In this document: one piece after another, positions 30,380-60,540 of the stretch
Layout of the letters: each line of letters begins with the position of its first letter
Numbering within the stretch: position 1 is the stretch's first letter
Origin: Eledone cirrhosa
Lineage: Eukaryota
Direction: 5' to 3'
DNA: 64,000 bases
NCBI GenBank assembly: GCA_964016885.1
Contig: OZ024741.1
Span: 411,432,001-411,496,000, forward strand
Notes under the pieces: generated by a model
Told to the model about the DNA's origin: nothing
Databases searched by the model: none
Seen by the model: the letters and a program-made list of their open reading frames with translations, nothing else
Program-made: the position numbers and the translations under genes

Positions 30380-30667
30380 GCCCCCTGCTACAGCTAGTAT
30401 TCATTTTCAGCTGAGTATACCGGAACAATGTAAATAGGTCACATGCATTCACCATTAACAAACCATTGCTTTTAACTCCCCAATACTACTTGACTGATAT
30501 TATATGTAGCACATGTTGCAGTTATTTCTGTTTACATACCAAACCTTCATGTTACCAACATGTAGCATTGATATATAACATGTAGCATTGATATATAAAC
30601 TGAGTGGTGACATGACCGACCTGCTCTATATAATTAATACTTTGTTAGAGTGTAACTGTTTAAGTCT

Positions 30668-30913
30668 GTATAAGTGTGTATGTGTGTATGTATGTGTGTA
30701 TAAGTGTGTATGTATATGTGTATGTGTCTGTGTATGTATGTGTGTATGTATGTATGTATGTGTGTATGTATGTATGTGTGTATGTATGTGTGTATGTGTG
30801 TATGTGTGTATGTGTGTATGTATGTGTGTGTGTGTGTGTGTATGTGTGTTTGTGTGTATGTGTGTATGTGTGTTTGTGTGTATGTGTGTATGTGTGTATG
30901 TATATGTATGTAT
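30668..30913. repeat. (TG)n/(TATG)n compound microsatellite
   Basis: Seen directly. Confidence 0.95.
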
Positions 30914-30914
30914 G

Positions 30915-31197
30915 TTGGTAGCACAACATCCAGTCCTAAATAAATGAGGTCGTGTAGGTGTCACAACAAAAATACACACAGTCCACGCTGTAATGTGGCC
31001 ATGTAAGTAACACAGTAAAAACCTCCCAGTCCACACTGTAAACGTGGTTGGTGTTAGGAAGGGCATCCAGCCGTAGAAAACCAGCCAGACAGTCCTATAC
31101 GAGCAAGACAACCACTCTTGCCTCTAGTGGGACAATTCCCGTCTAAACCCATGCTAGTGTGGAAGACAGACGTTAAACGATGATGATGATGATGATG
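30915..31197 (+). mobile_element. SINE-like interspersed repeat (3' part) with (GAT)n tail
   Basis: GTGGTTGGTGTTAGGAAGGGCATCCAGCCGTAGAAAA ... CCCATGCTAGTGTGGAAGACAGACGTTAAAC(GAT)n. Homologous copies occur at 36590-36880 (-) and 41840-41958 (+). Confidence 0.7.
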
Positions 31198-31619: not shown

Positions 31620-33845
31620 CATATATCTACCTGTATATTCTACTGCGTTGATGTATATACCTGTATACCTATATACCTATATACCTGTATATCTATCTAC
31701 CTGTATACCTGTATATCTATCTACCTGTATACCTATATACCTATATACCTGTATACCTGTATACCTATATACCTGTATATCTATATACCTGTATACCTGT
31801 ATACCTGTATATCTATATACCTGTATACCTGTATACCTATATACCTATATACCTTTATACCTGTATACCTGTATACCTATATACCTATATAACTGTATAC
31901 CTATATACTTCTATGCCTATATACCTATATACCTGTATACCTATATACCTATATACCTGTATACCTATATACCTGTATACCTATATACCTATATAGCTGT
32001 ATACCTATATACCTGTATACCTGTATACCTGTATACCTGTATACCTGTATACCTATATACCTGTATACCTGTATACCTATATACCTGTATACCTGTATAC
32101 CTATATACCTATATACCTGTATACCTATATACCTATATACCTATATACCTGTATACTATATACCTGTATACCTGTATACCTATATACCTATATACCTGTA
32201 TACCTGTATACCTATATACCTATATACCTGTATACCTATATACCTATATACCTATATACCTGTATACCTATATACCTGTATACCTATATACCTGTATACC
32301 TATATACCTATATACCTATATACCTGTATACCTATATACCTATATACCTATATACCTGTATACCTATATACCTGTATACCTATATACCTGTATACCTGTA
32401 TACCTGTATACCTATATACCTGTATAGCTGTATACCTATATACCTATATACCTGTATACCTATATACCTATATACCTATATACCTGTATACCTATATACC
32501 TATATACCTGTATACCAATATACCTGTATACCTATATACCTATATACCTGTATACCTATATACCTATATACCTATATACCTGTATACCTATATACCTGTA
32601 TACCTATATACCTATATACCTATATACCTGTATACCTATATACCTGTATACCTATATACCTGTATACCTGTATACCTGTATACCTATATACCTGTATAGC
32701 TGTATACCTATATACCTATATACCTGTATACCTATATACCTATATATCTGTATAGCTGTATACCTGTATACCTATATACCTGTATACCTGTATACCTGTA
32801 TACCTATATACCTATATACCTGTATACCTGTATACCTGTATAACTATATACCTGTATACCTATATACCTGTATACCTAGTATACCTATATACTTGTATAC
32901 TTGTATACTTGTATACATGTATACCTGTATACCTATATACCTGTATAGCTGTATACCTATATACCTATATACCTGTATACCTATATACCTATATACCTAT
33001 ATACCTGTATACCTATATACCTATATACCTGTATACCTATATACCTGTATACCTATATACCTATATACCTGTATACCTATATACCTATATACCTATATAC
33101 CTGTATACCTATATACCTGTATACCTATATACCTATATACCTATATACCTGTATACCTATATACCTGTATACCTATATACCTGTATACCTGTATACCTGT
33201 ATACCTATATACCTGTATAGCTGTATACCTATATACCTATATACCTGTATACCTATATACCTATATATCTGTATAGCTGTATACCTGTATACCTATATAC
33301 CTGTATACCTGTATACCTGTATACCTATATACCTATATACCTGTATACCTGTATACCTGTATAACTATATACCTGTATACCTATATACCTGTATACCTAG
33401 TATACCTATATACTTGTATACTTGTATACTTGTATACCTGTATACCTGTATACCTATATACCTGTATACCTATATACCTATATACCTATATACCTGTATA
33501 AGTGTTTATCTGTATACCTATATACCTGTATACCTATATACCTGTATATCTATCTACCCATATACCTGTATACCTGTATAAGTGTATACCTGTATACCTA
33601 TATACCTATATACCTGTATACCTATATACCTATATATCTGTATAGCTGTATACCTGTATACCTATATACCTGTATAGCTGTATACCTATATACCTATATA
33701 CCTGTATACCTGTATACCTATATACCTATATAACTATATACCTATATACCTGTATACCTATATACCTACATACCTGTATATCTATCTACCTATATACCTA
33801 TATACCTGTATACCTATATACCTGTATACCTGTATACCTGTATAT
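31620..33845. repeat. 8-bp minisatellite TATACCT(G/A), about 2.2 kb
   Basis: Mixed TATACCTG and TATACCTA units. An internal duplication at ~520 bp offset is marked by the rare variant TATACCTAGTATACC...CTTGTATACTTG at ~32871 and ~33392. Confidence 0.97.
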
Positions 33846-33872: not shown

Positions 33873-33953
33873 CTGTTAGCTGATGATTTAGGAGCCAGAC
33901 TCAGTCTACTGGAACGCAATGTCAACCCCTTTCAACAACCTGACAACTTCATT
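33873..33953 (+). CDS. Host gene coding exon B (81 nt, LLADDLGARLSLLERNVNPFQQPDNFI)
   Basis: Polypyrimidine tract tttcttttcctcccacaAG acceptor, open frame, donor ATT|GTGAGT. Phase 0-0. Unique island between two minisatellites. Confidence 0.8.
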
Positions 33954-33984: not shown

Positions 33985-36310
33985 TGATGTGTTAACTGTG
34001 TTGCTAGATGTGTTAACTGTGTTGTTGATGTGTTAACTGTGTTGTTGGTGTGTCAACTGTGTTTTTGATGTGTTAACTGTCTTTCTAGATGTGTTAACTG
34101 TGTTGTTGATGTGTTAACTGTGTTGATGATGTGTTAACTCTGTTGTTAGTGTGTTAACTGTGTTGTTAGTGTGTTAATTGTGTTTACTGTGTTGATGTGT
34201 TAACTGTGTTGTTAGTGTGTTAACTGTGTTGATGTGTTAACTGTTTTGTTAGTGTGTTAACTGTGTTGATGTGTTAACTGTGTTGTTTGATGTGTTAACT
34301 GTGTTGATGTATGTGTTAACTGTGTTGGCAGATGTGTTAACTGTTTTGGCAGATGTGTTAACCCTGTTATTGATATGTTAGTTGTGTTGGCAGATGTGTT
34401 AACTGTATTGGCAGATGTGTTAACTGTGTTAGCAGATGTGTTGACTGTGTTGTTAGATGTGTTAACTGTGTTGTTAGATGTGTTAACTGTGTTATTGATG
34501 TGTTAACTGTGTTATTGATGTGTTAACTGTGTTATTGATGTGTTAACTGTGTTGTTGGTGTGTTAACTGTGTTGTTGATGTGTTAACTGTGTTTTTGATG
34601 TGTTAACTATGTTGTTGATGTATTAACTGTGTTGTTGGTGTGTTAACTGTGTTGTTGGTGTGTTAACTGTGTTGTTGATGTGTTAACTGTGTTGTTAGTG
34701 TCTTTCTTGTGTTGATGGTGTGTTAACTGTGTTGTTGATGTGTTAACCCCTGTTGTTGGTGTTAACTGTGTTGTTGGTGTGTTAACTGTGTTGGTGGATG
34801 TGTTAACCGTGTTGTGGATGTGTTAACTGTGCTGTTTGATGTGTTAACTGTGTTGTTTAATGTGTTAACTGTGTTGATGTATGTGTTAACTGTGTTGGCA
34901 GATGTGTTAACTGTGGTGGCAGTTGTGTTAACTGTGTTGTTGATGTGTTAACTGTGTTATTGATGTGTTAACTGTGTTGGCAGATGTGTTAACTGTGTTG
35001 ACAGATGTGTTAACTGTGTTGACAGATGTGTTAACTGTGTTGTTGATGTGTTAACTCTGTTATTGATGTGTTAACTGTGTTGTTGATGTGTTAACTCTGT
35101 TGACAGATGTGTTAACTGTACTGTTAGATGTCTTAACTGTGTTGTTGATGTGTTAACTGTGTTATTGATGTGTTAACTGTGTTATTGATGTGTTAACTGC
35201 GTTGTTGATGTGTTAACTGTGTTATTGATGTGTTAACTGTGTTGTTTGATGCGTTAACTGTGTTGTTTGATGTGTTAACTGTGTTGTTGATGTATTAACT
35301 GTGTTGGCAGATGTGTCAACTATGCTGGTAGATGTGTTAACTGTGTTATTGATGTGTTAACTTTGTTATTGATATGTTAACTGTGTTGTTGGTGTGTTAA
35401 CTGTGTTGGTGATGTGTTAACTATGTTGCTAGATGTGTTATTGACGTGTTAACTGTGTTGTTGATGTGTTAGCTGTGTTCTTGGTGTGTTATCTGTGTTG
35501 TTGATGTGTTAACTGTCTTTCTAGTTGTGTTAACTGTGTTGTTGATGTGTTAACTGTGTTGTTGGTGTGTTATCTGTGTTGTTGATGTGTTAACTGTCTT
35601 TCTAGTTGTGTTAACTGTGTTGTTGATGTGTTAACTGTGTTGTTGATGTGTTAGCTGTGTTCTTGGTGTGTTATCTGTGTTGTTGATGTGTTAACTGTCT
35701 TTCTAGTTGTGTTAACTGTGTTGTTGATGTGTTAACTGTGTTGTTGGTGTGTTATCTGTGTTGTTGATGTGTTAACTGTCTTTCTAGTTGTGTTAACTGT
35801 GTTGTTGATGTGTTAACTGTGTTGTTGATGTGTTAACTGTGTTGTTGGTGTGTTAACTGTGTTGTTGGTGTGTTAACTGTGTTGGTGGATGTGTTAGCCG
35901 TGTTGCGAGATGTGTTAACTGTGTTGCGAGATGTGTTAACTGTGTTGTTTGATGTGTTAACTGTGTTGATGTATGTGTTAACTGTATTGGCAGATGTGTT
36001 AACTGTGTTGTTGATGTGTTAACTGTATTATTGATGCGTTAACTCTGTTGACAGATGTGTTAACTGTGTTGTTGATGTGTTAACTGTATTATTGATGCGT
36101 TAACTGTGTTGGCAGATGTGTTAACTGTGTTGGCAGATGTGTTAACTGCGCTGGCAGATGTGTTAACTGTGCTGTTAGATGTGTTAACTGTGTTGTTGAT
36201 GTGTTAACAGTGTTGTTGATGTGTTAACTGTGTTGGTATATGTGTTAACTGTGTTGTTGATGTGTAAACTGTGTTTTTGATGTGTTAACTGTGTTGTTGA
36301 TGTGTTAACT
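33985..36310. repeat. ~20-bp minisatellite GATGTGTTAACTGTGTTGTT, about 115 copies
   Basis: Near-constant core TGTGTTAACTGTG (GTTAAC palindrome) with variable 17-21 bp spacing. Confidence 0.97.
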
Positions 36311-36339: not shown

Positions 36340-36590
36340 TTGTGGAATGTAAATGTGAGAGAAAGGCTGAACTTGGATGAACTGATGGAGAAACTGGGTT
36401 TAAGAGGAAACCAAATTACTGTAGAAGAGAGAAGACTGCACTGGTACAGACATGTGATGAGCATGGATGATGATTGCTTGTGAAGAAGTACCAAGAAATC
36501 TCAGTGGAAGGAAGTGATAGTAGAGGTAGACCAAGGAAGACCTGAGCTGAGGTGATGAGAGCTGATCTCAAATTGCTGAAACTCATATCC
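36340..36590 (+). pseudogene. Degenerate 3' fragment of an RTE-type LINE ORF
   Basis: Translates with lesions to ERRLHWYRHVMSMDD ... VEG..SRGRPRKT*AEVMRADL, matching the RLRWxGHVxRM ... GRGRPxKTW C-terminal motif of RTE-clade reverse transcriptases. Confidence 0.7.
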
Positions 36591-36880
36591 ATCATCATCA
36601 GCAGCACCACCACCATAATCCTCATCATTTAACATTTACTTTCCCTGCTAGCAAGGGTTGAGTGGTACTTCAAAAACTGAGTCAGTAGTGAAGCAAGTCT
36701 CCTGACCTTCCTGACAGGCCAGTGTCTGTATCACACCTACTGAATACATTTTATCTTTGCACCAGTACTAGGGAGGTTATCATGTTTTTGACACAACTGA
36801 AAGGTCCAATCAACCCTTTCTTTGGCAAGTTTTCTATGTCTGGATGTTCTTCCAATCACCAACCATTTTACAAGAGTGTG
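36590..36880 (-). mobile_element. SINE-like repeat, same family as 30915-31197, minus strand
   Basis: (CAT)n tail, TTTAACATTTACTTTCCCTGCTAGCAAGGGTTG and TTTCTATGTCTGGATGTTCTTCCAATCACCAACCA are reverse complements of the family motifs. Confidence 0.6.
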
Positions 36881-39053
36881 TATATCTGGTTTACAATAGG
36901 TACACTGTATCCCTGTGTATATATGGTTTACAATAGGTACACTGTATCCCTGTGTATATCGGGTTTACAATAAGTACACTGTATCCCTGTGTACATCTGG
37001 TTTACAATAGGTACACTGTATCCCAGTGTATATCTGGTTTACAATAGGCACACTGTATCCCAGTGTATATCTGGTTTATAATACGTACACTGTATCCCTG
37101 TGGTGTATCTGGTTTACAATAGGTACACTGTACCCCTGTGTATATCTGGTTTACAATAGGTACACTGTATCCCTGTGTATATCTGGTTTACAATAGGTAC
37201 ACTGTATCCCTGGGTATATCTGGTTTACAATAGGTACACTGTGTCCCTGGGTATATCAGGTTTACAATAGGTACACTGTATCCCTGTGTATATCAGATTT
37301 ACAATAGGTACACTGTATCCCTGTGTATATCTAGTTTACAATAGGTACACTGTATCCCTGTGTATATCTAATATAAAATAGGTACACTGTATCCCTGTGT
37401 ATATCAGGTTTACAATAGGTACACTGTATCCCTGTGTATATCTGGTTTACAATAGCGTCACTGTATCTCTGTGTATATCAGGTTTACAATAGGTATACTG
37501 TATCCCAGTATATATCTGGTTTACAATAGGTACACTGTATCCCTGGGTATATCTGGTTTACAATAGGTACACTGTATCCCTGTGTATATCTGGTATACAA
37601 AAGGTACACTGTATCCCTGTATATCTGGTTTACAATAGGTACACCATATGCCTGTCTATCTGGTTTACAATAGGTACACTGTATCCCTGTTTATCTGGTT
37701 TACAATAGGTACACTGTATCCCTGTGTATATCAGGTTTACAATAGGTACACTGTATCCCTGTGTATATCTGGTTTACAATAGCGTCACTGTATCTCTGTG
37801 TATATCAGGTTTACAATAGGTATACTGTATCCCAGTATATATCTGGTTTACAATAGGTACACTGTATCCCTGGGTATATCTGGTTTACAATAGGTACACT
37901 GTATCCCTGTGTATATCTGGTATACAAAAGGTACACTGTATCCCTGTATATCTGGTTTACAATAGGTACACCATATGCCTGTCTATCTGGTTTACAATAG
38001 GTACACTGTATCCCTGTTTATCTGGTTTACAATAGGTACACTGTATCCCTGTGTATATCTAGTTTACAATAGGTACACTGTATCCCTGTGTATCTGGTTT
38101 ACAATAGGTACACTGTATCCCTGGGTATATCAGGTTTACAATAGGTACACTGTATCCCTGTGTATATCTGGTATACAAAAGGTACACTGTATCCCTGTAT
38201 ATCTAGTTTACAATAGGTACACTGTATCCCTGTGTATATCTAGTTTACAATAGGTACACTGTATCCCTGTGTATATCTGGTTTACAATATGTATACTGTA
38301 TCCCTGTGTATATCTGGTTTACAATAGGTACACTGTATCCCTGTGTGTATCTGGTTTACAATAGGTACACTGTATCCCTGGGTATATCTGGTTTACAATA
38401 GGTACACTGTATCCCTGTGTATATCTGGTTTACAATAGGTACACTGTATCCCAGTGTATATCTGGTTTACAATAGGTACACTGTATCCCTGTTTATCTGG
38501 TTTACAATAGGTACCATGTATCCCAGTGTATATCTAGTTTACAATAGGTACACTGTATCCCTGTGTATCTGGTTTACAATAGGTACACTGTATCCCTGGG
38601 TATATCAGGTTTACAATAGGTACACTGTATCCCTGTGTATATCAGGTTTACAATAGGTACACTGTATCCCTGTGTATATCTGGTTTACAATAGGAACACT
38701 GTATCCCAGTGTATATCTGGTTTACACTAGGTACATTGTATCCCAGTGTATATCTGGTTTATAATAGGAACACTGTATCCCAGTGTATATCTGGTTTACA
38801 ATAGGTACACTGTATCCCAGTGTATATCTGGTTTATAATAGGTACACTGTGTCCCAGTGTGTATATCTGGTTTACAATAGGTACACTGTATCCCTGTGTA
38901 TATCTGGTTTACAATAGGTACACTGTATCCCTGTGTATATCTGGTTTACAATAGGTACACTGTATCCCTGTGTATATCTGGTTTACAATAGGTACACTGT
39001 ATCCCTGTGTATATCTGGTTTACAATAGGTACACTGTATCCCTCTGTGTATCT
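36877..39053 (+). repeat. 37-bp minisatellite GTGTATATCTGGTTTACAATAGGTACACTGTATCCCT, about 59 copies (left arm of an inverted repeat)
   Basis: Seen directly. Confidence 0.97.
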
Positions 39054-39158
39054 GGAGTCTGCAAGTCGACCTCTATTTCAGTAGGTTAAATGGCATTAAA
39101 ACACTTGTTTTATATTTCCATAATTACAATTTTTCATAATTATAATTATCATTTTCAG

Positions 39159-39319
39159 TATAATAATTATGAATATTGGAAAAAAGAAGAAAGAGAACTC
39201 CTGGGTTCTTTACTCCAAATAATTGGTAGAAGCGATATTCCGAAGATGAAGGAGGAATCTGTCTCAAGATTGACTGACATTGATCACCATTATACCTGTT
39301 TGTCTCAGAAACTATTTCT
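39159..39319 (+). CDS. Host gene coding exon C (161 nt, YNNYEYWKKEERELL...DHHYTCLSQKLF)
   Basis: Acceptor attttcAG, donor TCT|GTAAGT, phase 0-2. HYTCLSQKLF resembles the Munc13 segment QYTCLHENLF at the start of the MUN region (recalled, not searched). Confidence 0.85.
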
Positions 39320-39486
39320 GTAAGTGCCTTCATTTTTCTTTTAAAGTTATTTTAAACCCTTTTGGTACCCCCTCCTCCACCCCCGTTCTACATTATTGAA
39401 CTGTTTATTTTAAAGTGTTTATATTTATCTACCGTCCATCATAATTTTATGACATCTTCCTTAAGTTATGTTCCAAACACCAGCTT

Positions 39487-39677
39487 AATAATTGTTTCTA
39501 CTTTTGGCACAAGGCCAGCAATTATCCCAGTGTATTACTGGTACTTTATTTTATCGACCCCGTAAGGATGAAAGGCAAAGTTAACCTCGGCAGGATTTGA
39601 ACTCAGATCATAAAGGGAGGTATCTCTATGCTGCATAGCGTCTGACCCTCTACCGATACTGTTAATCCACCGCCCTT
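39487..39677 (-). mobile_element. tRNA-derived SINE, probably with a MetaSINE-type core (copy 1)
   Basis: On the minus strand: tRNA-like head with B box GAGTTCAAATCC, core GCCTTTCATCCTTACGGGGTCGATAAAATAAAGTACCAG, 3' end TGGCCTTGTGCCAAAAGTAGAAACAA(TTA)n. Confidence 0.8.
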
Positions 39678-39873
39678 AATAATAATAATTGTTTCTACTT
39701 TTGGCACAAGGCCAGCAATTACCCAGTACATTACTGGTACTTTATTTTATCAACCCCGTAAGGATGAAAAGCAAAGTTAACTTTGGAGGGATTTGAACTC
39801 AGTCCGTAAAGGGAAGTAACTCTATGCTAGATAGCATGGCGTCCAACCCTCTACTGATACTGCCAATCCACTG
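39678..39873 (-). mobile_element. tRNA-derived SINE (copy 2, head to tail with copy 1)
   Basis: Same motifs. Its (TAA)n tail abuts the head of copy 1. Confidence 0.8.
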
Positions 39874-39939
39874 GGAGCTATTTTATTAGAGTATTTCATA
39901 TTCTGAAGCATTATAATCTGTTCATTTCTCCATACCTAA

Positions 39940-40445
39940 AACACACATACACTAATACACACATACACACATACAGTAATATACATACACACATACACAA
40001 ATACACACACATACACTTACACTAATACACACATACACACACACTAATACACACACATACACATACACTAATACACACACATACAGTAATACACACACAT
40101 ACAGTAATACACATACACACATACACTTACACTAATACACACACTAATACACACACATACACACACATACACATACAGTAATACACACACATACACTTAC
40201 ACTAATACACACACATACAGTAATACACACACATACAGTAATACACATACACACATACACTTACACTAATACACACACTAATACACACACATACACACAC
40301 ATACACATACAGTAATACACACACTTACACTTACACTAATACACACACACACCCTTACACTAATACACACACACACACTAATACACACACATACACATAC
40401 ACTAATACACACACACACACTTATACTAATACACACACACACACA
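39940..40445. repeat. CA-rich compound microsatellite (ACACATAC/ACTAATAC units)
   Basis: Seen directly. Confidence 0.95.
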
Positions 40446-40685
40446 GAATCCCTCCTGTACAGAAGGTCAGCCCTCTCCAACTCCACTTCACCAATAGTAT
40501 CTATCTTTAACAATTATATTGGAAAATGTTTATTTAAATAGGAACACTTTCAAATAGTTTGATTTATTTCATAGAACCAGAGGTGGTTTTGACCAAGTAG
40601 GTACGAAAAGGCTATGGGCACAGACCCACCAGGCATCAATCTCTCCAGTCCTGGAGGGCCTGTGAAGGCCATGGATGCTGTCCCT

Positions 40686-40798
40686 TCTTGAAGACCCACC
40701 AGAAATCAATCTCCCCAGACTTGTTCCACTGACTAAAATAATGAAAAAAATCTAATTAAACTTAAGCTGGATGTACTAACTCTCTGTCTCTCTCTGTC
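40686..40798 (+). repeat. ~113-bp direct repeat, copy 1 (copy 2 at about 41959-42072)
   Basis: AGACCCACCA-AAATCAATCTCCCCAGACTT-TTCCACTGACTAAAATAATGAAAAAAATCTAATTA-ACTTAAGCTG...CTAACTCTCTGTCTCTCTCT is present on both sides of the inverted array. Confidence 0.9.
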
Positions 40799-41958
40799 AG
40801 ATATACACACAGGGATACAGTGTACCTATTGTAAACTAGATATACACTGGGATACAGTGTACCTATTGTAAACTAGATATACACTGGGATACAGTGTACC
40901 TATTGTAAACTAGATATACACTGGGATACAGTGTACCTATTGTAAACTAGATATACACTGGGATACAGTGTACCTATTGTAAACCTGATATACACAGGGA
41001 TACAGTGTACCTATTGTAAACTAGATATACCCAGGGATACAGTATACCTACTGTAAACCAGATATACACAGGGATACAGTGTACCTATTGTAAACCTGAT
41101 ATAAACTGGGATACAGTGTACCTATTGTAAACCAGATATACCCAGGGATACAGTGTACCTATTGTAAATCTGATATACCCAGGGGTACAGTGTACCTATT
41201 GTAAACCAGATATACCACAGGGATACAGTGTACGTATTGTAAACCAGATATACACTGGGATACAGTGTACCTATTGTAAACCAGATATACACTGGGATAC
41301 AGTGTACCTATTGTAAACCAGATATACACTGGGATACAGTGTACTTATTGTAAACCTGATATACACAGGGATACAGTGTACCTATTGTAAACCAGATTTA
41401 CACAGGGATACAGTGTACCTATTGTAAACCAGATATACACTGGGATACAGTGTACCTATTGTAAACCAGTTATACACAGGGATACAGTGTACCTATTGTA
41501 AACCAGATATACACAGGGATACAGTGACCCTATTTTAAACCATATATACACAGGGATACAGTGTACCTATTGTAAACCAGATATACACAGAGATACAGTG
41601 ACCCTATTGTAAACCAGATATACACAGGGATACAGTGTACCTATTGTAAACCAGATATACACAGGGATACAGTGCACCTATTGTAAACCAGATATACACA
41701 GGGATACAGTGTACCTATTGTAAACCAGATATACACAGGGATACAGTGTACCTATTGTAAACCTGATATACACAGGGATACAGTGTACCTATTGTAAACC
41801 AGATATACACAGGGATACAGTGTACCTATTTTAAACCAGATATACACACTCCTGTAAAGTGGTTGGTGATTGGAAGAACATCCAGACATAGAAAACTTGC
41901 CAAAGAAAGGGTTGATTGGACCTTTCAGTTGTGTCAAAAACATGATAACCATCCTAGT
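40799..41958 (-). repeat. Inverted copy of the 37-bp array (~28 units) plus ~110 bp of its SINE-derived flank
   Basis: 41840-41958 is the reverse complement of 36767-36885. The ORF track shows the same peptide MFLTQLKGPINPFFGKFSMSG on opposite strands. Confidence 0.95.
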
Positions 41959-42183
41959 TCTTCCAGACCCACCAAAAATCAATCTCCCCAGACTTATTCC
42001 ACTGACTAAAATAATGAAAAAAAATCTAATTAGACTTAAGCTGAATCTACTAACTCTCTGTCTCTCTCTATCGTTAAGAAAACAGCTCTCTTTTTAAAGC
42101 TAATTTTCTTTTAGAGTAAAAAGCTTTGAAATTTGTAAATTAATTAATTTTATTTCAATTTATTTTTATATTTTTCCCCTAAG

Positions 42184-42283
42184 TTATGACAAGAAATGTC
42201 TGGAAACCATTGAGGATCAACCATATGTCTACTCTAACTATTCTGCTTGTATCTTGGAAGAGTTTGGACTTCGTTATGGTGTT
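42184..42283 (+). CDS. Host gene coding exon D (100 nt, YDKKCLETIEDQPYVYSNYSACILEEFGLRYGV)
   Basis: Acceptor tttttcccctaAG, donor GTT|GTAAGT. Phase 2-0 exactly completes the split codon CT|T from exon C. ILEEFGLRYGV resembles Munc13 IVDEFAMRYGV and CAPS VLDEYCARYGV. Confidence 0.85.
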
Positions 42284-42329
42284 GTAAGTGTTTTTCCTGC
42301 TTCTCTTAGTTTTAAATATTGTACTTGAT

Positions 42330-45300
42330 CCTTTCATTACCATAATTCTAATTAAAGACACTGTCTATGTCTTTAACCCTTTCATTACCATATAGCTAAT
42401 GTAAGACACTGTCTATGTTGTTTAACCTTTCATTACCATATTTCTAATGAAAGACACTGTCTATGTTGTTTAACCCTTCCATTACCATATTTCTAATGTA
42501 AGACACTGTCTATGTTGTTTAACCCTTTCATTACCATATTTCTAATGAAAGACACTGTCTATGTTGTTTAACCCTTCCATTACCATATTTCTAATGTAAG
42601 ACACTGTCTATGTTGTTTAACCCTTTCATTTCCATATTTCTAATGTAAGACACTGTCTATGTTGTTTAACCCATCCATTACCATATTTCTAATGTAAGAC
42701 ACTGTCTATGTTGTTTAACCCTTTCATTACCATATTTCTAATGTAAGACACTTTCTATGTTGTTTAACTCTTCCATTACCATATTTCTAATGTAAGACAC
42801 TGTCTATGTTGTTTAACCCTTCATTACCATATTTCTAATGTAAGACACTGTCTATGTTGTTTAACCCTTTCATTACCATATTTCTAATGGAAGACACTGT
42901 CTATGTTGTTTAACACTTTCATTACCATATTTCTAATGTAAAGCACTGTCTATGTTGTTTAACCCTTTCATTACCATGTTTCTAATGTAAGACACTGTCT
43001 ATGTTGTTTAACCCTTCCATTACCATATTTCTAATGTAAAGCACTGTCTATGTTGTTTAACCCTTTCATTACCATATTTATAATGAAAGACACTGTCTAT
43101 GTTCTTTAACCCTTTCATTACCATATTTATAATGTAAGGCACTGTCTATGTTGTTTACCCCTTTCATTACCATATTTCTAATGTAAAGCACTGTCTATGT
43201 TGTTTAACCCTTTCATTACCATATTTCTAATGTAAGACACTGTCTATGTTGTTTAACCCTTTCACTACCATATTTCTAATGTAAGACACAGTCTATGTTG
43301 TTTAACCCTTCCGTTACCATATTTCTAATGTAAGACACTGTCTATGTTGTTTAACCCTTCCATTACCATATTTCTAATGTAAGACACTGTCTATGTTGTA
43401 TAACCCTTCCATTACCATATTTCTAATGAAAGACACTGTCTATGTTGTTTAACCCTTCCATTACCATATTTCTAATGTAAGGCACTGTCCATGTTGTTTA
43501 ACCCTTTCATTACCATATTTCTAATGAAAGACACTGTCTATGTTGTTTAACCCTTCCATTACCATATTTCTAATGTAAGACACTGTCTATGTTGTTTAAC
43601 CCTTTCACTACCATATTTCTAATGTAAGACACTTTCTATGTTGTTTAACTCTTCCATTACCATATTTCTAATGAAAGACACTGTCTATGTTGTTTAACCC
43701 TTTCATTACCATATTTCTAATGTAAGACAGTGTCTATGTTGTTTAACCATTTCATTACCATATTTCTAATGAATGACACTGTCTATGTTGTTTAACCCTT
43801 TCACTACCATATTTCTAATGTAAGACACTGTCTATGTTGTTTAACCCTTCCATTACCATATTTCTAATGAAAGACACTCTCTATGTTGTTTAACCCTTCC
43901 ATTACCATATTTCTAATGTAAGGCACTGTCCATGTTGTTTAACCTTTTCATTACCATATTTCTAATGAAAGACACTGTCTATGTTGTTTAACCCTTCCAT
44001 TACCATATTTCTAATGTAAGACACTGTCTATGTTGTTTAACCCTTTCATTACCATATTTCTAATGAAAGACACTGTCTATGTTGTTTAACCCTTTCATTA
44101 CCATATTTCTAATGTAAAACATTGTCTATGTTGTTTAACCCTTTCATTACCATATTTCTAATGTAAGACGCTGTCTATGTTGTTTAACCCTTTCATTACC
44201 ATATTTCTAATGAAAGACACTGTCTATGTTGTTTAACCCTTTCATTACCATATTTCTAATGTAAGACAGTGTCTATGTTGTTTAACCCTTTCATTACCAT
44301 ATTTCTAATGTAAGACAGTGTCTATGTTGTTTAACCCTTTCATTACCATATTTCTAATGTAAGACACTGTCTATGTTGTTTAACCCTTTCATTACCATAT
44401 TTCTAATGAAAGACAGTGTCTATGTTGTATAACCCTTCCATTACCATATTTCTAATGAAAGACACTGTCTATGTTGTTTAACCCTTTCATTACCATATTT
44501 CTAATGAAAGACACTGTCTATGTTGTTTAACCCTTCATTACCATATTTCTAATGTAAGACAGTGTCTATGTTGTTTAACCCTTTCATTACCATATTTCTA
44601 ATGTAAGACAGTGTCTATGTTGTTTAACCCTTTCATTACCATATTTCTAATGTAAGACAGTGTCTATGTTGTTTAACCCTTTCATTACCATATTTCTAAT
44701 GTAAGACAGTGTCTATGTTGTTTAACCCTTTCATTACCATATTTCTAATGTAAGACAGTGTCTATGTTGTTTAACCCTTTCATTACCATATTTCTAATGT
44801 AAGACAGTGTCTATGTTGTTTAACCCTTTCATTACCATATTTCTAATGTAAGACAGTGTCTATGTTGTTTAACCCTTTCATTACCATATTTCTAATGAAA
44901 GACACTGTCTATGTTGTTTAACCCTTTCATTACCATATTTCTAATGTAAGACAGTGTCTATGTTGTTTAACCCTTTCATTACCATATTTCTAATGAAAGA
45001 CACTGTCTATGTTGTTTAACCCTTCATTACCATATTTCTAATGAAAGACACTGTCTATGTTGTTTAACCCTTTCATTACCATATTTCTAATGTAAGACAC
45101 TGTCTATGTTGTTTAACCCATCCATTACCATATTTCTAATGTAAGACACTGTCTATGTTGTTTAACCCTTTCATTACCATATTTCTAATGTAAGACACTG
45201 TCTATGTTGTTTAACCCTTTCACTACCATATTTTTAATGTAAGACAGTGTCTATGTTGTTTAACCCTTTCATTACCATATTTCTAATGAAAGACACTGTG

Positions 45301-46350
45301 TATGTTGTTTAACCCTTTCATTACCATATTTCTAATGTAAGACAGTGTCTATGTTGTTTAACCCTTTCATTACCATATTTCTAATGTAAGACAGTGTCTA
45401 TGTTGTTTAACCCTTTCATTACAATATTTCTAATGTAAGACAGTGTCTATGTTGTTTAACCCTTTCATTACCATATTTCTAATGTAAGACAGTGTCTATG
45501 TTGTTTAACCCTTTCATTACCATATTTCTAATGTAAGACAGTGTCTATGTTGTTTAACCCTTTCAGTACCATATTTCTAATGTAAGACAGTGTCTATGTT
45601 GTTTAACCCTTTCATTACCATATTTCTAATGTAAGACAGTGTCTATGTTGTTTAACCCTTTCATTACCATATTTCTAATGTAAGACAGTGTCTATGTTGT
45701 TTAACCCTTTCATTACCATATTTCTAATGTAAGACAGTGTCTATGTTGTTTAACCCTTTCATTACCATATTTCTAATGTAAGACAGTGTCTATGTTGTTT
45801 AACCCTTTCATTACCATATTTCTAATGAAAGACACTGTCTATGTTGTTTAACCCTTTCATTACCATATTTCTAATGTAAGACAGTGTCTATGTTGTTTAA
45901 CCCTTTCATTACCATATTTCTAATGAAAGACACTGTCTATGTTGTTTAACCCTTCATTACCATATTTCTAATGAAAGACACTGTCTATGTTGTTTAACCC
46001 TTTCATTACCATATTTCTAATGAAAGACACTGTCTATGTTGTTTAACCCTTCATTACCATATTTCTAATGTAAGACAGTGTCTATGTTGTTTAACCCTTT
46101 CATTACCATATTTCTAATGTAAGACACTGTCTATGTTGTTTAACCCTTTCATTACCATATTTCTAATGTAAGACACTGTCTATGTTGTTTAACCCTTTCA
46201 TTACCATATTTCTAATGTAAGACACTGTCTATGTTGTTTAACCCTTTCATTACCATATTTCTAATGAAAGACACTGTCTACGTTGTTTAACCCTTCATTA
46301 CCATATTTCTAATGTAAGACACTGTCTGTCTTTAATTTTCTTGTTACCAT
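42330..46350. repeat. 49-bp minisatellite TTAACCCTTTCATTACCATATTTCTAATGTAAGACACTGTCTATGTTGT, about 80 copies
   Basis: Seen directly. The unit begins with TTAA followed by a MITE-like terminal repeat. Confidence 0.98.
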
Positions 46351-46984: not shown

Positions 46985-47022
<38 letters not shown>

Positions 47023-47265
47023 TTTTCTTTATTAACCACAAGGGTTTACATAAAGTAGACATTAAGGACAGTACAGGACAATACAGGACGGTACAAATGG
47101 GCATTTCTGCATGTAAAAAAATCAGAGGTTGAAATAAAATAACAAAGAAAAATTCCCCAATAGGGGGGAGACTTCCGAGGGACATTTGTGGACAAAGCCC
47201 ATTAAAAGACCACAGTGGCCCTGACCACCAGGGCAAGTGCCCTCTCCCAGTTTTCCGCCTTTAAT

Positions 47266-50200
47266 TTACAGACACATACTCAGAGAAGGCCCATTCATTC
47301 GGGCCATACTTGCTTCTCTCACGCATCTTTCAACAAAATGCTGGGAAGAGAGCACTTCCCTCTCTACCCTGATTTTCCTTTTCAGATGAAATTTGAAAAA
47401 GTTAATCAGGGCATCACCGAAGAGGTAAGTGCTCGTCTTCAGCCCTTTCAAACGTGTCCACCATACTATCTCTTTCGCCATGGCCACCAGACAGATAAAA
47501 ACTGCCTGCCCTTCCCGGCTAAAGGAAGAGGGCGGGGCAATCCTCACGATGGACTCAGCTGATAGCTGGATCCGTCCTACACGTGACAGCAGGTGTTCGA
47601 CATAAACCCACAAGTCAGCAATGCTCGGACACTGGACGAGTGCGTGCAGGACGGTTTCGTCGCCCTGTGCGCATCTCGGACATGCCCGGCTGATGGCACC
47701 TCCATGCCTGTAAAGTTTATCCCGAACTGGCAAAGCACCCCGGTAGCACTGCCAGGCCAGGGATTTCTGGAAGTTGTCCATAGGCCCCGGCCCGAAAGTC
47801 CTTCCGAAGAGATTGGCTAGTTGATTTTCGTCGACGCCTAGAGTTTCTCCAAGTACGTCGTCGCTCTTCCCCACCACTAATCCCCTATAGAACGCCAAGG
47901 TGGAGTTTCCACCGATCACATTGCCCGATTGGTCGAGGGCTGTGAGCACCTGAAGACAATCCAGTCTCCAAGCGCTCCCTCTCGGTCTTCGCTTGACCCA
48001 GGACTGCATCTCCGTCAAGGAGACGAGCTGGGGAAAGACGCATCTAGCAAACGGCGACCACACCTGATCACCGTCGAGGAAGAGGTGGAGATGTCGTAGC
48101 CTGAGCGCATGTCTGCGCATCATCAGCCACGGCATGCCCAGCCCTCCACGTAGCGGGTGTTGACAGCAGATTGACCGCCTGACCATCAGAGCGCGTCCCT
48201 TCCACAAGAAGCGAAAGAGCAAATGCTCCAGCGCAGTCAGGCGGGGCTTAGGACAAGGTACGACGGTCAGGCGGTAGTAGATGACGGATGCGATGTACGC
48301 ATTCGCCACCTCCGCTCGACCTTTCAGGGATAGCTTCCTCTCGGCCCATTTCTGGGTGAGAGAAGCCACCCTGCTCGTCACCTCGTCCCAGTTTTTGTCC
48401 GTCTGGAGGTCTGGACCGAACCAGACCCCTAGCAATTTAACCGGTCTGTCCGTCCAGCGCCCAACGACGCTGTTGGACGGCATGGACCTGCCTCTCCAGG
48501 TGCCGAGCTGCAGCCCCACTGACTTTTCCTGGTTGATCATTGCTCCTGTCACCGCTTCGTATTCTCTTAGTGTAGTGCCGATCGCCTCGATGTGTTTGGC
48601 GTTCGACACCACTACGGTGACATCGTCGGCATATGCTGACACGGATCTTCCGCATCCTAGTTCGCGCGGGACCCCCCTCAGCGTCTCCAGTTTGTGCAGT
48701 AATGGCTCGAGAGTCAATACGTACAATAGAGACGAGAGGGGACATCCTTGGCGGACCGAGCGCATGATGTTGAACGGTTCCGAAAGGTGACCGTTCACTC
48801 TCACCACAGAGCAGATGTCACTGTGCATGGCAGCGATCCAGCCTCTGAAGATGGGCCCAAAGCCATCCGCCCTCAGGACTGCCGTTAGGTAATGATGGTC
48901 GACCCTATCGAAGGCTTTCGACTGATCTAAATTGATCAAAGACCCACCCGTGCCAGGTTCCTTAGCTACCCTCTCTACGATGTATCGCATGAAGTGGAGG
49001 TTGTCGTGGATGGATCTGTCTGGAATGGCGCATGTCTGCGCCTCTCCCACCAGACCACCAACGACAAGTGCCAACCTCTTTGCTAGCACCTTGGCCAAAA
49101 TCTTGAACTCTGTGTTTAGCAGAGTTATGGGCCTAAAATTATCTATGTTATCCCCCTTGTTCGGATCCTTTCTCAGCAGCGCCACCGCTCCTCGGCTCAC
49201 AGAGCTGGGAATTCTCCCGTTCTGTTGCCAGTTGCAGTAGACGTCTGCCAAGAGGCCTCCGAACAAGTTTGGCATTTGTACGTAAAGTTCATAGGGCAGA
49301 CCATCCAAACCAGGCGATTTACCCTTTGTGCAACTAGTCATTGCATCCCGTACTTCAGCGGTTGTTATCGGCTTTTCGCAACACTCCGCCTCAGTGGCCG
49401 AGAGCCGTGACAGTCCGTCGAGGTAGACACTAAAGTCCATCCCTCGATCCGGCCCGCCACTGCCCCGAAACAGTTGAGCGAAGTGTCGCTGAAAAGCTTC
49501 ACACATTTGCCCGGGATCGAGTAGCTTGCGCCCGTCGTGGTCCACCAAAGACCGGATCGTGGCTTTGTTGCCACGACGCGCCTCCGCCACTCGGGCCCAT
49601 TGAACGGCTTTCGTCCCCTCATGTCTGATAGCACGCACCCTAGCTCTGACAACGCAGCCTTCGTGCTTTGCATTGAAGAATTGGTCAAGGGCCAATTTCG
49701 CCGCAAGTACGTCGGTCGCGATGCCTTTGCTAAGCGCCTCATCTAATTTTCTAACTAGTTCTCCCTCTGCTCTATTTTTCTCTATTGCTAAAGTCTTACT
49801 AAACCTAATGGACTCTATTCTAATTGCTCTTTTCAGAGCAAACCACCACTTGTTGTTGACGATGGCCCCCGTCCAGCGTTCAGCTTCCAGTAACCAGGCC
49901 CTTGTCTATGAAGTCTGTCTATGTCGATCTCACAGATCACAAATTTGTGGTCTGTGTAGTCGACTATTTTAAATTGTGGACAACTTATATTAGCCTTATC
50001 TAGTTCTCTGCAGAATACCCTATCGAGATACGATCTGGATGACCCGATGCGGTTTGTCCATGTCCACATTGGCACATTCGGGTGATCCAGTCGATACCTG
50101 TCAGACAGTTCAAAACGTCTGAGCAGGTTGGTGAGGCCCTTGCACCCTCCTCCCCTATCCACTAGCCCCACACGATCCCAGCGTGCATCCAAGATACCGT

Positions 50201-50627
50201 TCCAGTCGCCCACTAATACTAAAGAGCGGGACGTTCCAAGAAAGGTCTCTAGACGTCTGAAGAAATCTGGCCGTCCTGCCCCTGTTGGGGCGTAGACGGC
50301 TACTAGCCTGAAAGCATTGCCTTCGCTGCTGGTCACGTCCAGCACCACCGACTTACCTTCTGGGTCTAGGAAGATGGCCCGTATCGCGAGATCCAAGCCT
50401 CTCCGAAAAAGGTCGGCGACCCCTCCCCCCGATCCTGGACGGCTGGGAGATGCGCAAACATCGTAGCTGCCGAAGATCGGTGCGAAGGCCTGTGCTTCAG
50501 AGATTCTGGTTTCACTGATGGCCACCACATCTATGTTTAGTGACCTGAGGTCGTTGAGCAGGTGACCCTGCTTCCAAGATGACCCCAGGCCACGTGCATT
50601 TATACTGCCTATTCTGAGTACGGCCAT
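47266..50627 (-). pseudogene. Tx1 copy 1 ORF2 (APE endonuclease + reverse transcriptase), one frameshifting deletion near 49875
   Basis: EN motifs NARGL, SET, VYAP, GDWN, YLDRVF, TDH. RT motifs KSPGLDGLP, FRPITLLN, DQSKAFDRVDH, VRQGCPLS, YADD. C-terminal CPRC..ETVLH..C. About 60 nt are missing relative to copy 2 after YWKLNA. Confidence 0.92.
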
Positions 50628-50659
50628 GTTGGATGAGAAATGGGGCAAGTGAGAAAGGG

Positions 50660-52663
50660 TCACTTACCTTGTTCGTGTGGTGAAGGGACAGTAGAACCGT
50701 CCCTTTCGCTGGTCGTGGGTGTTTCCAAGAGGATGTCAGTGTATATCCTCTTGGTAACCGACCCTCTGAAGTCTCCAACTACATTGGGGAATTTTTGTTT
50801 TAAAGGTTTGTACTGTTCTATTGAGATTTCGATGATGCTTATGTTTGTCGGGAGAGTTCTTGGTGTTGGTGGGGTGTAGTAGTTTTTTTCTGTGATGTCT
50901 GTGTGCTGCTTTATATATTGTATGAGTTCTTTTTTTGCCATGTTTATGGCTGTGTACTTTTTGGGGGAGGGGTGATTTTGTTGCTGTTTTCTTCTTGTTG
51001 CAGTTTGGTGTGTGTGTCTTGTGTTTGCGTTGTTGGTGTTTTTGATAATGCTGGTGGTGGTGTGGTTGTTGTTGTCAGTGGTGGTGATGGTGGTGGTGTT
51101 GCTGCAAGTTTCCTTGCTGCCTTTACCCCTCTTTGTATGCCTTCGCTTTTGGAGGGTGAATCTAAGGGGTTTTTTGTTTTTTTGTTTTTGTGGCAGACCG
51201 TTTGCCACTTCACTCCCACCTCAAACTCCATGTTGGATTCTGTGTTGTCTGGGAGGGGTATGTGCTCCACAGCTGTTGGTGGTGGTAGTGGAGCCCTCTT
51301 CGGCAATTTTGTTGCTGAGGTAGCTACTTCAAATGTAGCTATTGGTGTTGCCGCCACTGATGATGCTGCTTTAGTTGTCCGTGGCCTTGGTACGGGTGCT
51401 ACGGACGTTGCCCTCCTACTCACCGTGGAAGGGGCTTCTTCGTTTGTTGCCTGCCCTGCTCTTGGTAGCAGCGGACCAGGTATTGGAAGGAGAGGGGCCT
51501 TCTTCGCTGTCTTCTGCGGGCAAAAGGCCCTGAGGTGACCCTTCGACCCACAGAGATAACATTTTGGCCGTCTTCCTTCTACACTTATAGGGAGTTGGAG
51601 TCCTTCCTCGATGTCTATGATATCGGGGATAGCGTCGATACATTCCTGGTCAGTTTGTATAAGCATTTGCATGCCTATACCTGACCAGTTCTCTCTCCCT
51701 ATTTTTTCTACTTGCAGCAAGGACAGACGCGGCCAGCCAAGGTATGGGCACGTCGGGTGGGACCTGGGTCACTTTGACCCTCACAATTTTCTGCCCGCAG
51801 TAGGAGGGCACCAAGACTATCTCCTCACTCTTTAGGGTTTCCAAAGAGTGAGACTTTGCTTCCTGGGGGGTGGCGAAAAGTACGTCTACTGTGGCGTACT
51901 TTCTGCCTCGGGTGATGTGGGTTTTGCGTGCCCAGACGCACCCGAAGGCCTTTTGGATTTGAGCCTCCGTGGCTCTCTCCACCCGATGTGAGATTTTGCT
52001 TACGGTGCGGTAAGTCACCGTCCGTAGCTGCTGGTCCTTGAAAAAATCGGGTGGAGGTTTCAGGGAAACTCTATTTGCGCTTCTTGTCACCATGGCCCTT
52101 GCGACTGCCATCTCCTCCTCTGTGACTAACACTGTCTCGATATTTCGAGCGACACCTGCAAAAGAAGTGGTCCCTTTTTCAGCAGCACCACTATTGCTGC
52201 CGTTACTGGTCTTACTGGTGGTGTTGAGAACGCTATTACAGGTATCGGTGCTATTGTTGTTGTTTTCGTTGGTACAGTTGTTGGTGTTGTTGTTGTTGTT
52301 TTCGTTGATACTGTTGCTGTTGTTACTGTTATTGTGGCTGTTGTTATTATTGTTGTTTTTGTTGATACTGTTCCTACTATTATTGTTGTTGTGGCTGTTG
52401 TTATTGTCATTGTTAATGTCGTTCTCGACCTTACCGCTGTTATTTTTGTTATTGTCGTTCTCGACTTTACCGCTGTTGTTTTTGTTGTTGCTGTTGTTGT
52501 TGTTGCTGTTGTTGTTGTTGTTGTTGTTGTTTGTGTTAGAAATATTTGTTAATTTTAAATCTGTTACAATCTTCTTTTCCTTTGTAATATTTTCATTTAT
52601 ATTTACCTCCGCTGGAACGCTGTGTTGTCTGACAGCGCTCTCTCTCTTTCTTATGTTATCCAT
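50660..52663 (-). pseudogene. Tx1 copy 1 ORF1 (gag-like nucleic-acid-binding protein), frameshifted
   Basis: Three overlapping frames (51650-52678, 50944-51720, 50660-51208). Poly-Asn N-terminus, zinc knuckle CYLCGSKGHLRAFC, Pro/Thr-rich linker. Confidence 0.8.
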
Positions 52664-52808
52664 ATTGAAATTTTTCAAAAAAAATATTTTTACACAAATA
52701 CGAATACGGCACCCCGTAAAGGGGTGCCGTATTATTTACTAGTGAACCCCTGTATTAGGTGGGTCACTTCTTCTAAACTTTTATCAAATTTAAAACTTGA
52801 ATAAAAGG

Positions 52809-58440: not shown

Positions 58441-58573
58441 ATAATAATAATAATAATAATTGTTTCTACTTTTGGCACAAGGCCAGCAATCAACCAGTAC
58501 ATTACTGGTACTTTATTTTATCCACCCCGTAAGGATGAAAGGCAAAGTTAACCTTGGCGGGATTTGAACTCAG
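58441..58573 (-). mobile_element. 5'-truncated tRNA-derived SINE with (TAA)n tail
   Basis: Nearly identical to 39487-39607. Truncated just past the B box. Confidence 0.85.
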
Positions 58574-59557
58574 AATAATAATGATTTCTTTATTGGCCAC
58601 AAGGGCTGACATCAAGAAAAACATTACAAACGGCACAGGACGAAACAGGAGGGTACGATGTGGGTTCTGTGCGTGTAAATATTTTTATTATTTATATAAG
58701 AAAAGAAAAAAAAAGGACATAGAAACATATATAAATATAAACAATAAAAATGAAAATTGAAACAATGAAAAATTCCCCAATAGGGGGAAACCTCCGAGGG
58801 TTACTCGTGGCGAAAACCACACAAAAGACCACGGCCACCCTGACCACCAGGGAAAGCGGCCTCTCTCAATTTTTCCATTTCTCAAACTACAGACGTATAT
58901 TCAGAGCGGTCCCGTTCATTCGGACCATTCTCGCTACATTCACCTACCTTTCAACAAACTTGCTGAAGGCAGCACTTGCCTCTCCACCCTGATTTTCCTC
59001 TTCAAGTGAAACTTGAAAAAGTTAATTAGGGATTCGCCGAAGAGGAAATTGTCTGTCTTTAACCCTTTTAACCTTGTCCACCACACAATATCTTTCGCCA
59101 TGGACACCAGTCAGATGAAAATCGCCTGCCCTTCCTCCTCGAAGGAAGACGGCGAGACCATCTGCACAATGGACTCAGTCGACAACCGGATCAGTCCTTC
59201 ACACGACAGCAACTGTTCGACATAGCTCCACAAGTCAGCAATGCTCGGGCACTGAACGAGTGCGTGCACGACGGTTTCGTAGCTCTGCGCGCATCTCGGA
59301 CAGGCTCGGCTGACGGCACTTCCGTGCCTATAGAGCTTATCTCAAACTGGCAGCGCTCCCTGGTAGCACTGCCAGGCCAGGGATTTTTGGAAGTTATCCA
59401 TAGGCCCTGGGCTGAAAGTTCTCCGGAAGAGAGCAAACAGCTGATCTTCTTTGACGCCCAGGATCTTTCCGAGAATGTCGTCGCTCTTCCCCTCCACTAG
59501 TCCTCTATAGAACGCCGAGGTGGATGTTCCACTGATACTGGTGCCCAGCTGGCAGAG

Positions 59558-59559
<2 letters not shown>
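58574..59559 (-). mobile_element. Tx1 copy 3, 5'-truncated, diverged subfamily
   Basis: Encodes the ORF2 C-terminus (GPMDNFQKSLAWQCY, ETVVHALVQCPSIADL). The 3' UTR is related to but distinct from that of copies 1, 2 and 4. Confidence 0.85.
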
Positions 59560-59604
<45 letters not shown>

Positions 59605-59856: not shown

Positions 59857-59868
59857 AACAACAACAAC

Positions 59869-59916
<48 letters not shown>

Positions 59917-59917
<1 letters not shown>

Positions 59918-60500: not shown

Positions 60501-60540
60501 TAATAATAATGATAATAATAATAATAATAATAATAATAAT

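What the first reader, a model, noticed from the sequence alone, without database searches (positions are those of the whole stretch)
36767..41958. Kilobase-scale inverted repeat made of minisatellite arrays brackets host exon C
Seen: the left arm (36767-39053) and right arm (40799-41958) are reverse complements, including ~110 bp of non-array flank, and enclose the 161-nt exon 39159-39319. Inference: the pre-mRNA could fold into more than 1 kb of dsRNA, with many registers because the arms are tandem arrays. That would favour A-to-I hyper-editing (ADAR activity is high in coleoid cephalopods), back-splicing to a 161-nt circRNA, or exon skipping. Skipping would frameshift (phase 0-2), a possible regulatory switch.
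Basis: partly seen in the sequence, partly recalled or inferred. Interest (0 to 1): 0.7.

Follow-up and report, generated by a model that had tools for sequence, protein, structure and literature searches.

The report
Flipped repeat copy brackets octopod exon
In an octopus relative, a 1.2-kb piece of one intron sits backwards in the next intron between two copies of a 115-base sequence, likely the scar of one DNA-copying error; the unspliced RNA is predicted to fold into a long, likely edited stem around one exon, but a likely RNA-derived contig keeps that exon, so this is probably a tolerated accident rather than a splicing switch.

Summary
The inverted repeat is real: left arm 36764-39055 (113-bp flank plus 59 units of 37 bp), right arm 40799-41961 (28 units plus the same flank, 96% identical), around 161-nt exon C of an uncharacterised octopod gene. 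A duplex of about 1.0-1.1 kb is predicted. The right arm is therefore best read as a one-time templated, inverted copy of the left (template switch in repair or replication), not a foldback transposon. A likely RNA-derived contig joins exon C to exon D exactly. Editing, circles and minor skipping could not be tested. Intronic editing is likely and ordinary; a regulatory switch has no support here but has a real precedent (mouse Tbxt-insRCS2). Long inverted repeats are common in this gene, though exon C has the longest flanking pair of 16 exons. The scan reported the same pattern before on other DNA of this genome (TERT, DALRD3 notes).

The parts
33873..33953 (+). Exon B (81 nt, ends in phase 0) of the host gene
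   Evidence: AG/GT ends seen; matches P0002 aa ~235-260
36590..36876 (-). Fragment of a common dispersed repeat (SINE-like; label recalled, not from a call) ending in a (GAT)n tail; donor of the arm flank
   Evidence: Other genomic copies 81-87% identical; left copy continues through the family sequence past 36764
36764..36876 (+). Non-array flank of the left arm (the part present in both arms)
   Evidence: 95.7% to the right flank
36877..39055 (+). Left array, 59 units of a 37-bp dispersed satellite, with an internal 9-unit duplication (units 14-22 / 23-31)
39159..39319 (+). Exon C, 161 nt, phase 0-2, in the loop between the arms
   Evidence: 71% identity to P0002 aa 263-314; lies at 437-597 of a 2876-nt contig of run X4 with no differences
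40685..40798 (+). X: first copy of the 115-bp direct duplication, abutting the right arm
   Evidence: 92.2% to X'; full-length matches only at these two places among 7 candidates scored
40799..41848 (-). Right array, 28 units of the same satellite, inverted
41849..41961 (-). Inverted, truncated copy of the left flank
   Evidence: Stops where X' begins while the family sequence and the left copy go on
41958..42072 (+). X': second copy of the direct duplication
   Evidence: junction flank/X' bridged by a 455-nt contig of run X1
42184..42283 (+). Exon D, 100 nt; C plus D = 261 nt, in frame together
   Evidence: lies at 598-697 of a 2876-nt X4 contig, no differences

Best explanation
The right arm is likely a one-time, locally templated inverted copy of the left arm, likely made when a replicating or repairing DNA end switched template, and it is probably a tolerated passenger whose predicted RNA stem is likely edited but likely does not control splicing. 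Inferred steps: (1) a 37-bp satellite array became joined to an old dispersed-repeat fragment in intron B-C; (2) synthesis running through X (to 40798) jumped to the opposite strand of the left array 1.7-3 kb upstream, copied the array and 113 bp of flank backwards to 36764, then re-entered the original strand at 40685, re-copying X (switch order 3-2-4-1 in the four-point notation); (3) both arrays then changed unit number and order independently. Shown: the anatomy, the direction of copying, and a spliced form that joins C to D. Predicted: a 1.0-1.1 kb duplex with exon C and its splice sites in a 1.7-2.9 kb loop. Untested: editing, circles, minor skipping.
For: Direct duplication abuts both ends of the right arm only. 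The flank is 95.7% identical between arms but 81-87% to the other listed family copies; the family sequence continues past the arm boundary on the left and is cut on the right, which fixes left as donor. Unit variants link the arms: the swap at unit positions 9-10 occurs in 2 left and 2 right units and in 0 of 3509 units from 21 other arrays and not in the third array of this gene; the run 7G>C+insG then 18T>C occurs as L6-L7 and R17-R18; L shares 125 of R's 299 variant 15-mers against 6-84 for 11 arrays of 0.5-3 kb. Junctions show 1-4 bp of imperfect overlap, as reported for template-switch junctions (PMC5120786, passages). A separately assembled X1 contig bridges the flank/X' junction. A 2876-nt X4 contig holds exon C at 437-597 and exon D at 598-697. 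Long nearby inverted repeats are frequent in this gene: 8 clusters in 294 kb and 11 in 100 kb.
Against: The unit motifs were picked after seeing the arrays; in the unbiased test of exclusively shared 15-mers L does not stand out (2, against 14 for L037 and 8 for L025), and 10-kb arrays share up to 133. The order 4-before-1 was not observed among short human template switches (PMC5453318), so the event needs a break-repair or re-opening step that I cannot show. Both arrays end at nearly the same unit position (34 and 33), unexplained by a random switch, though 3 of 12 other array ends fall at 33-36. On function: exon C has by far the longest flanking reverse-complementary match of 16 internal exons (1165 bp; only one other exon has any, 182 bp), and a 220-bp copy of the same kind made skipping the major isoform in mouse Tbxt (PMC10901737). 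One contig from one run says nothing on minor or tissue-specific isoforms.
Confidence: 0.72

Rival explanations
1. The accident produced a working splicing rheostat: the stem loops out exon C, giving B-D transcripts with an immediate stop (decay), so gene output depends on array length and on ADAR unwinding.
For: Geometry equals Tbxt-insRCS2 / AluY-AluSx1 (PMC10901737, passages); predicted duplex of about 1 kb in many registers, nearest arm end 103 nt from the 3' splice site; skipping gives a stop two codons into D; exon C stands out among 16 exons.
Against: The spliced contig found includes exon C and runs through both junctions of C-D; splice sites are not in the long stem; no excess conservation of the arm flank over the neutral duplicate; the product would be only a decay substrate.
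Confidence: 0.1
2. The arms drive back-splicing of exon C to a 161-nt circular RNA with a function.
For: Reverse-complementary matches in both flanking introns are the known driver (PMC4201285, passages); arms confirmed.
Against: Exons of 400 nt or less circularised poorly or not at all in the ZKSCAN1 test (PMC4201285); circRNAs are at overall low levels in octopus, attributed to ADAR (PMC9699675); 161 nt is not a multiple of three.
Confidence: 0.04
3. The whole 5.2-kb structure is a foldback-type DNA transposon with modular terminal inverted repeats.
For: Outer unique domain plus inner tandem-repeat domain with unequal unit numbers resembles Tetris (PMC4079207, passages).
Against: No 8-10 bp target-site duplication at the outer ends; the left 'terminus' is the middle of another repeat; the interior holds a conserved, spliced host exon; 8 of 8 other short arrays lack a matching flank at the array end and lack flanking duplications.
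Confidence: 0.03
4. Two independent insertions of the dispersed satellite landed in opposite orientation by chance.
For: The family is dispersed and two further, apparently independent arrays lie in the same gene; the exclusive 15-mer test does not single out L.
Against: The identical flank-array junction in both arms, 96% flank identity and the truncation of the right flank cannot come from independent arrivals.
Confidence: 0.05
5. The right arm and X' are an assembly artefact.
For: Repeat-rich region 4.8 Mb from the contig end; the 3' third of the same gene is on the opposite strand in this assembly. The X/array junction and the flank/array junctions were not bridged by any listed contig.
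Against: Arms and X copies differ by 4-7% and in unit order, more than duplicated reads would; an X1 contig bridges the flank/X' junction and reaches through exon D; contigs of X1-X3 run from the last 30 bases of the left array through exon C without differences.
Confidence: 0.04

Closest known systems
Mouse Tbxt-insRCS2 allele and hominoid TBXT AluY/AluSx1 pair (PMC10901737, passages read)
   Same: A piece of one flanking intron copied in reverse into the other flanking intron, trapping one exon in a predicted loop; insRCS2 arose as an insertion at a break site.
   Different: Arms here are about 1.1 kb of satellite at 92-93% with many registers, not 220-300 bp; skipping here would frameshift to a stop; skipping is shown for Tbxt and not here.
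Template-switch mutations, four-point model (PMC5453318, passages read) and FoSTeS/MMBIR templated insertions (PMC5120786, passages read)
   Same: A nearby segment copied in reverse complement between two junctions with little or no microhomology; creates inverted plus direct repeats.
   Different: Kilobase scale and order 3-2-4-1; orders with 4 before 1 were not seen among short human events. The enzyme and pathway are unknown here.
Foldback transposons such as Tetris of Drosophila virilis (PMC4079207, passages read)
   Same: Long inverted arms with an outer unique domain and an inner tandem array of variable length.
   Different: No target-site duplication, no dispersed copies with these termini, host exon inside, one arm is a truncated copy of the other.
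Intronic reverse-complementary matches as ADAR substrates and circRNA drivers (PMC9989829, PMC4201285, PMC9699675, passages read)
   Same: Young, low-divergence repeats in opposite orientation in one pre-mRNA.
   Different: Arms are a satellite array, not a retroelement pair; the enclosed exon is short for circularisation; no editing or circle shown.

Membership tests
Locally templated inverted insertion (template switch) | Inserted segment is the reverse complement of nearby sequence | tested here: met
Locally templated inverted insertion (template switch) | Donor and copy can be told apart; copy is closer to the local donor than to distant copies | tested here: met
   Flank 95.7% vs 81-87% (40 of 2771 candidates scored); truncation on the right only. 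Array-only evidence is mixed.
Locally templated inverted insertion (template switch) | Two junctions with a deletion or duplication at the acceptor site and 0-6 bp microhomology | tested here: met
   115-bp duplication, 1-4 bp imperfect overlap
Locally templated inverted insertion (template switch) | Pre-insertion allele with a single X in a relative or another haplotype | not testable with these tools
   No related genome is held
Foldback transposon | Long modular inverted arms with tandem-repeat domain | tested here: met
Foldback transposon | 8-10 bp target-site duplication at the outer ends | tested here: not met
   Outer ends printed
Foldback transposon | Dispersed copies with the same termini | tested here: not met
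   Other arrays have unrelated flanks; other flank copies examined carry no array
Exon-skipping inverted pair (TBXT type) | Reverse-complementary pair in both introns flanking one exon | tested here: met
Exon-skipping inverted pair (TBXT type) | Skipped isoform detected and dependent on the pair | tested here: inconclusive
   Only an exon-C-containing contig was seen; contigs drop rare forms
circRNA locus | Back-splice junction in RNA | tested here: inconclusive
   Contigs of one run only, library not on record
ADAR hyper-edited intronic duplex | A>G clusters in RNA absent from DNA of the same animal | not testable with these tools
   No raw RNA reads listed; arms are multi-copy; A>G letters in the flank occur in DNA runs too

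The most novel reading that the evidence does not exclude
A single repair accident built a satellite-based 'poison-skip' dial: the two arrays pair around a frame-shifting exon, so that array length (a fast-mutating VNTR) and ADAR unwinding set how much full-length mRNA is made; and such templated copying is how this 37-bp satellite hops within octopod genes, repeatedly creating exon-bracketing hairpins.
Probability: 0.07. Interest if true: 0.72.

Novelty: new member of a known kind. Interest (0 to 1): 0.24.

Why it matters
As read here it is a well-preserved example of how a dispersed satellite gains a new, inverted copy next to the old one, with donor, direction and both junctions legible, and a natural counterpart of the Tbxt-insRCS2 allele: it shows that an octopod exon can still be spliced in despite a predicted kilobase stem around it. 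If skipping did occur and tracked array length or editing, it would be a VNTR-tuned, ADAR-sensitive control of gene dose in a lineage where the purpose of heavy editing is debated.

Tried and rejected
No RNA holder listed on record; X4 is taken as RNA only because its contig joins exons. No X4 joint going back at exon C, and no second X4 contig on exon D, was listed; contigs drop rare forms and tables were cut, so this is not evidence of absence. A>G letters at 41877, 41878 and 41939 appear in DNA runs as well and come from other repeat copies, so they are not editing. No contig of X was laid on X' at 90% likeness; a hole proves nothing. Protein identity: no Pfam family for the exons or for P0002; word-based search found nothing; Atlas hits all under 0.9; a resemblance to Munc13 that I recalled was not supported by any search. 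Idea that the satellite always inserts with long flanking duplications: rejected, 0 of 8 other short arrays. Idea of a Helitron-like fixed CTRR end: rejected, ends scatter over unit positions 2-36. Exclusive 15-mer test: did not single out L. Paper search for minisatellite + inverted + exon skipping + double-stranded RNA + VNTR gave 0 papers; listings showed no title on this satellite; one search did not return the paper I sought on template distances. Scan notes by sequence and near this place: none.
Full report
Observation. Tandem Repeats Finder gives two arrays of period 37 at 36877-39055 (59.4 copies) and 40803-41848 (28.2 copies) whose consensus units are reverse complements; 451 inverted arm pairs were found, the 25 longest at 89-95%. 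The outer, non-array flank matches over 117 bp at 95.7%, E 5e-50. The arms are unequal, 2.29 and 1.16 kb. Exon C (39159-39319) has canonical ends and is phase 0-2; joining B to D reads ...DNFIL-stop (in that script my B start and D end were each one base off, corrected from the printed ends and).

Host gene. Exon C has one hit among 1.84 billion representatives, P0002 (1525 aa, 71% identity, E 1.6e-13), named by its source as an uncharacterised Argonauta hians protein; no Pfam family. Its exons map in order from C2:411.32 to 411.61 Mb on the plus strand. The organism is thus an octopod; the protein's function is unknown.

(a) The right arm is bracketed by a direct duplication: X 40685-40798 and X' 41958-42072, 92.2% over 115 bp; a genome search found the full length only at these two places (7 candidates, all scored; other hits cover only the first 54-61 bases of the query). 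The left arm has no such duplication. (b) The flank is part of a common dispersed repeat (2771 candidates, 40 scored; copies outside the window 81-87%). In a nine-row alignment the left copy follows the family past 36764 to a (GAT)n tail, whereas the right copy stops there and turns into X'. 'SINE-like' is my recalled label. (c) The 37-bp unit is a dispersed satellite: matches on 8 contigs, 1599 exact copies of one unit, and a block that fills most of 11 of 11 stretches fetched at C2:409.77-409.95 Mb. The other arrays examined have unrelated flanks.

Origin. These facts give donor (left), copy (right) and both junctions. In the four-point notation of PMC5453318 (passages read; its Supplemental Fig. 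S1, which draws all 12 orders, was not seen) the order is 3-2-4-1, which creates inverted plus direct repeats; the paper notes that orders with 4 before 1 were not observed among short human events and would need the new helix to be reopened. At kilobase scale, insertions with a duplication at the acceptor site and blunt or 1-6 bp junctions are reported for FoSTeS/MMBIR (PMC5120786, passages), and templated insertions and partial tandem duplications for error-prone break repair (PMC7407515, passages). Junction overlaps here are 1-4 imperfect bases. Unit variants support kinship: the 9-10 swap is in 2 left and 2 right units and 0 of 3509 units of 21 other arrays (motif chosen after inspection), and L6-L7 matches R17-R18. 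An unbiased 15-mer test is mixed: L shares 125 of 299 variant words (arrays of similar size 6-84, 10-kb arrays 25-133), but exclusively shared words number 2 for L, 14 for L037 and 8 for L025. The flank, not the array, carries the argument. Divergence since the event is 4/109 in the flank and 8/110 plus one gap in X (p=0.37): old enough for the arrays to have been reshuffled, with no sign that pairing is preserved beyond neutral drift. I give no date, having no measured rate.

Is it real DNA? A 455-nt contig of run X1 spans 41921-42335, 37 bases into the flank and through exon D, with one other letter at 42044 that equals the state in X (depth under 5, so possibly an error). Contigs of X1-X3 cover 39026-39426 without differences, only 30 bases of them in the array. 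X1-X3 are one sample and may be the assembled animal. The X/array junction was not tested.

RNA. Duplex folding gives 1085 pairs and -1861 kcal/mol in the flank-anchored register and 997 pairs and -1684 in the inner register, with perfect runs up to 98 and 60; ten units of either arm alone give about -114 and -121 (no shuffle control was run). In the minimum-energy fold of 36700-42300 the splice sites of exon C pair only locally. Run X4, library not on record, has a 2876-nt contig at depth 10.4 with exon C at 437-597 and a contig of the same length and depth with exon D at 598-697; I infer one spliced contig that joins C to D. That shows the included form exists; it does not measure minor forms. 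ADARs mainly target duplexes of young repeats across metazoans (PMC9989829, passages), and in octopus most editing is in introns and 3'UTRs, rarely alters splice sites, and circRNAs are low (PMC9699675, passages). Short exons circularise poorly (PMC4201285, passages). Against complacency: a 220-bp inverted intron copy made skipping the major Tbxt isoform in mice (PMC10901737, passages).

Background. With arms of at least 200 bp, 80% identity and spacer up to 10 kb there are 8 clusters in 294 kb of the gene's 5' part (this one included, one self-overlapping; two others have 886 and 1246 bp arms at 99%), 11 in 100 kb of the 3' part, 15 in 30 kb and 1 in 40 kb nearby (regions not randomly chosen). 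Of 14 pairs examined, one other has a direct match abutting both ends of an arm (515 bp, 76%). Yet only 2 of 16 internal exons have a match of 100 bp or more in both adjacent introns, and exon C's is the longest. Two more arrays of the unit lie in the gene, one plus (12 units, 49 kb upstream) and one minus (72 units, 35 kb downstream, own variants, no shared flank), so the left arm has a competing partner.

Comparison and verdict. It works like a reverse-complementary intron pair and looks like a foldback element (PMC4079207, passages) but fails that family's target-site and dispersal tests. It is best filed as a locally templated inverted insertion, a new member of a known kind. Unreviewed scan notes describe like cases around TERT and DALRD3 exons in this genome; I did not check them. 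Interest 0.24; the switch reading stays open at about 0.07-0.10 and is directly testable by junction counts.

Noticed in passing
G000:C2:411.32-411.61 Mb (+) and 412.27-412.197 Mb (-): The host gene's first ~1088 codons lie on the plus strand and the last ~440 on the minus strand 0.6 Mb away: a mis-oriented scaffold piece or a real inversion splitting the gene.
   Followed up: partly
G000:C2:411505882-411508560 (L056-L057): A third array of the same 37-bp unit (72 units, minus strand, own variants) fills a small intron between two host exons; a fourth (12 units, plus) lies at 411419591.
   Followed up: partly
G000:C2:409.77-409.95 Mb (L025-L035), C2:217.94 Mb, C955: Large blocks of the same satellite, one interrupted by a 450-bp stretch that ends in a GT donor-like site (L030:6570-7018), suggesting satellite-filled introns of another gene.
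   Followed up: no
L038:5313 onward: A dispersed array ends in a short fold-back of its own units, a small template-switch-like scar.
   Followed up: no
14 array starts: 10 of 13 independent array starts fall in unit positions 19-30 (the TG/TA-rich part), perhaps microhomology with simple repeats or an alignment bias.
   Followed up: partly
window 450-30101, 31656-33844, 33985-36310, 42330-46327: Each neighbouring intron holds its own minisatellite (48, 8, 20 and 49 bp units); the 48-bp array is about 29 kb.
   Followed up: no
window 30650-30916 vs 39940-40203: A weaker inverted match (78% over 278 bp) between low-complexity tracts brackets exons B and C together.
   Followed up: no
G000:C2:411324558-411329326, 411590823-411598385, 412223141-412230085: Near-perfect (95-99.7%) inverted pairs of 0.5-1.2 kb, several starting in TA runs, possibly young long-TIR DNA transposons.
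   Followed up: no
window 47000-63250: GC-rich minus-strand and AT-rich plus-strand stretches that look like nested retroelement fragments separated by (TAA)n runs; judged by eye only.
   Followed up: no
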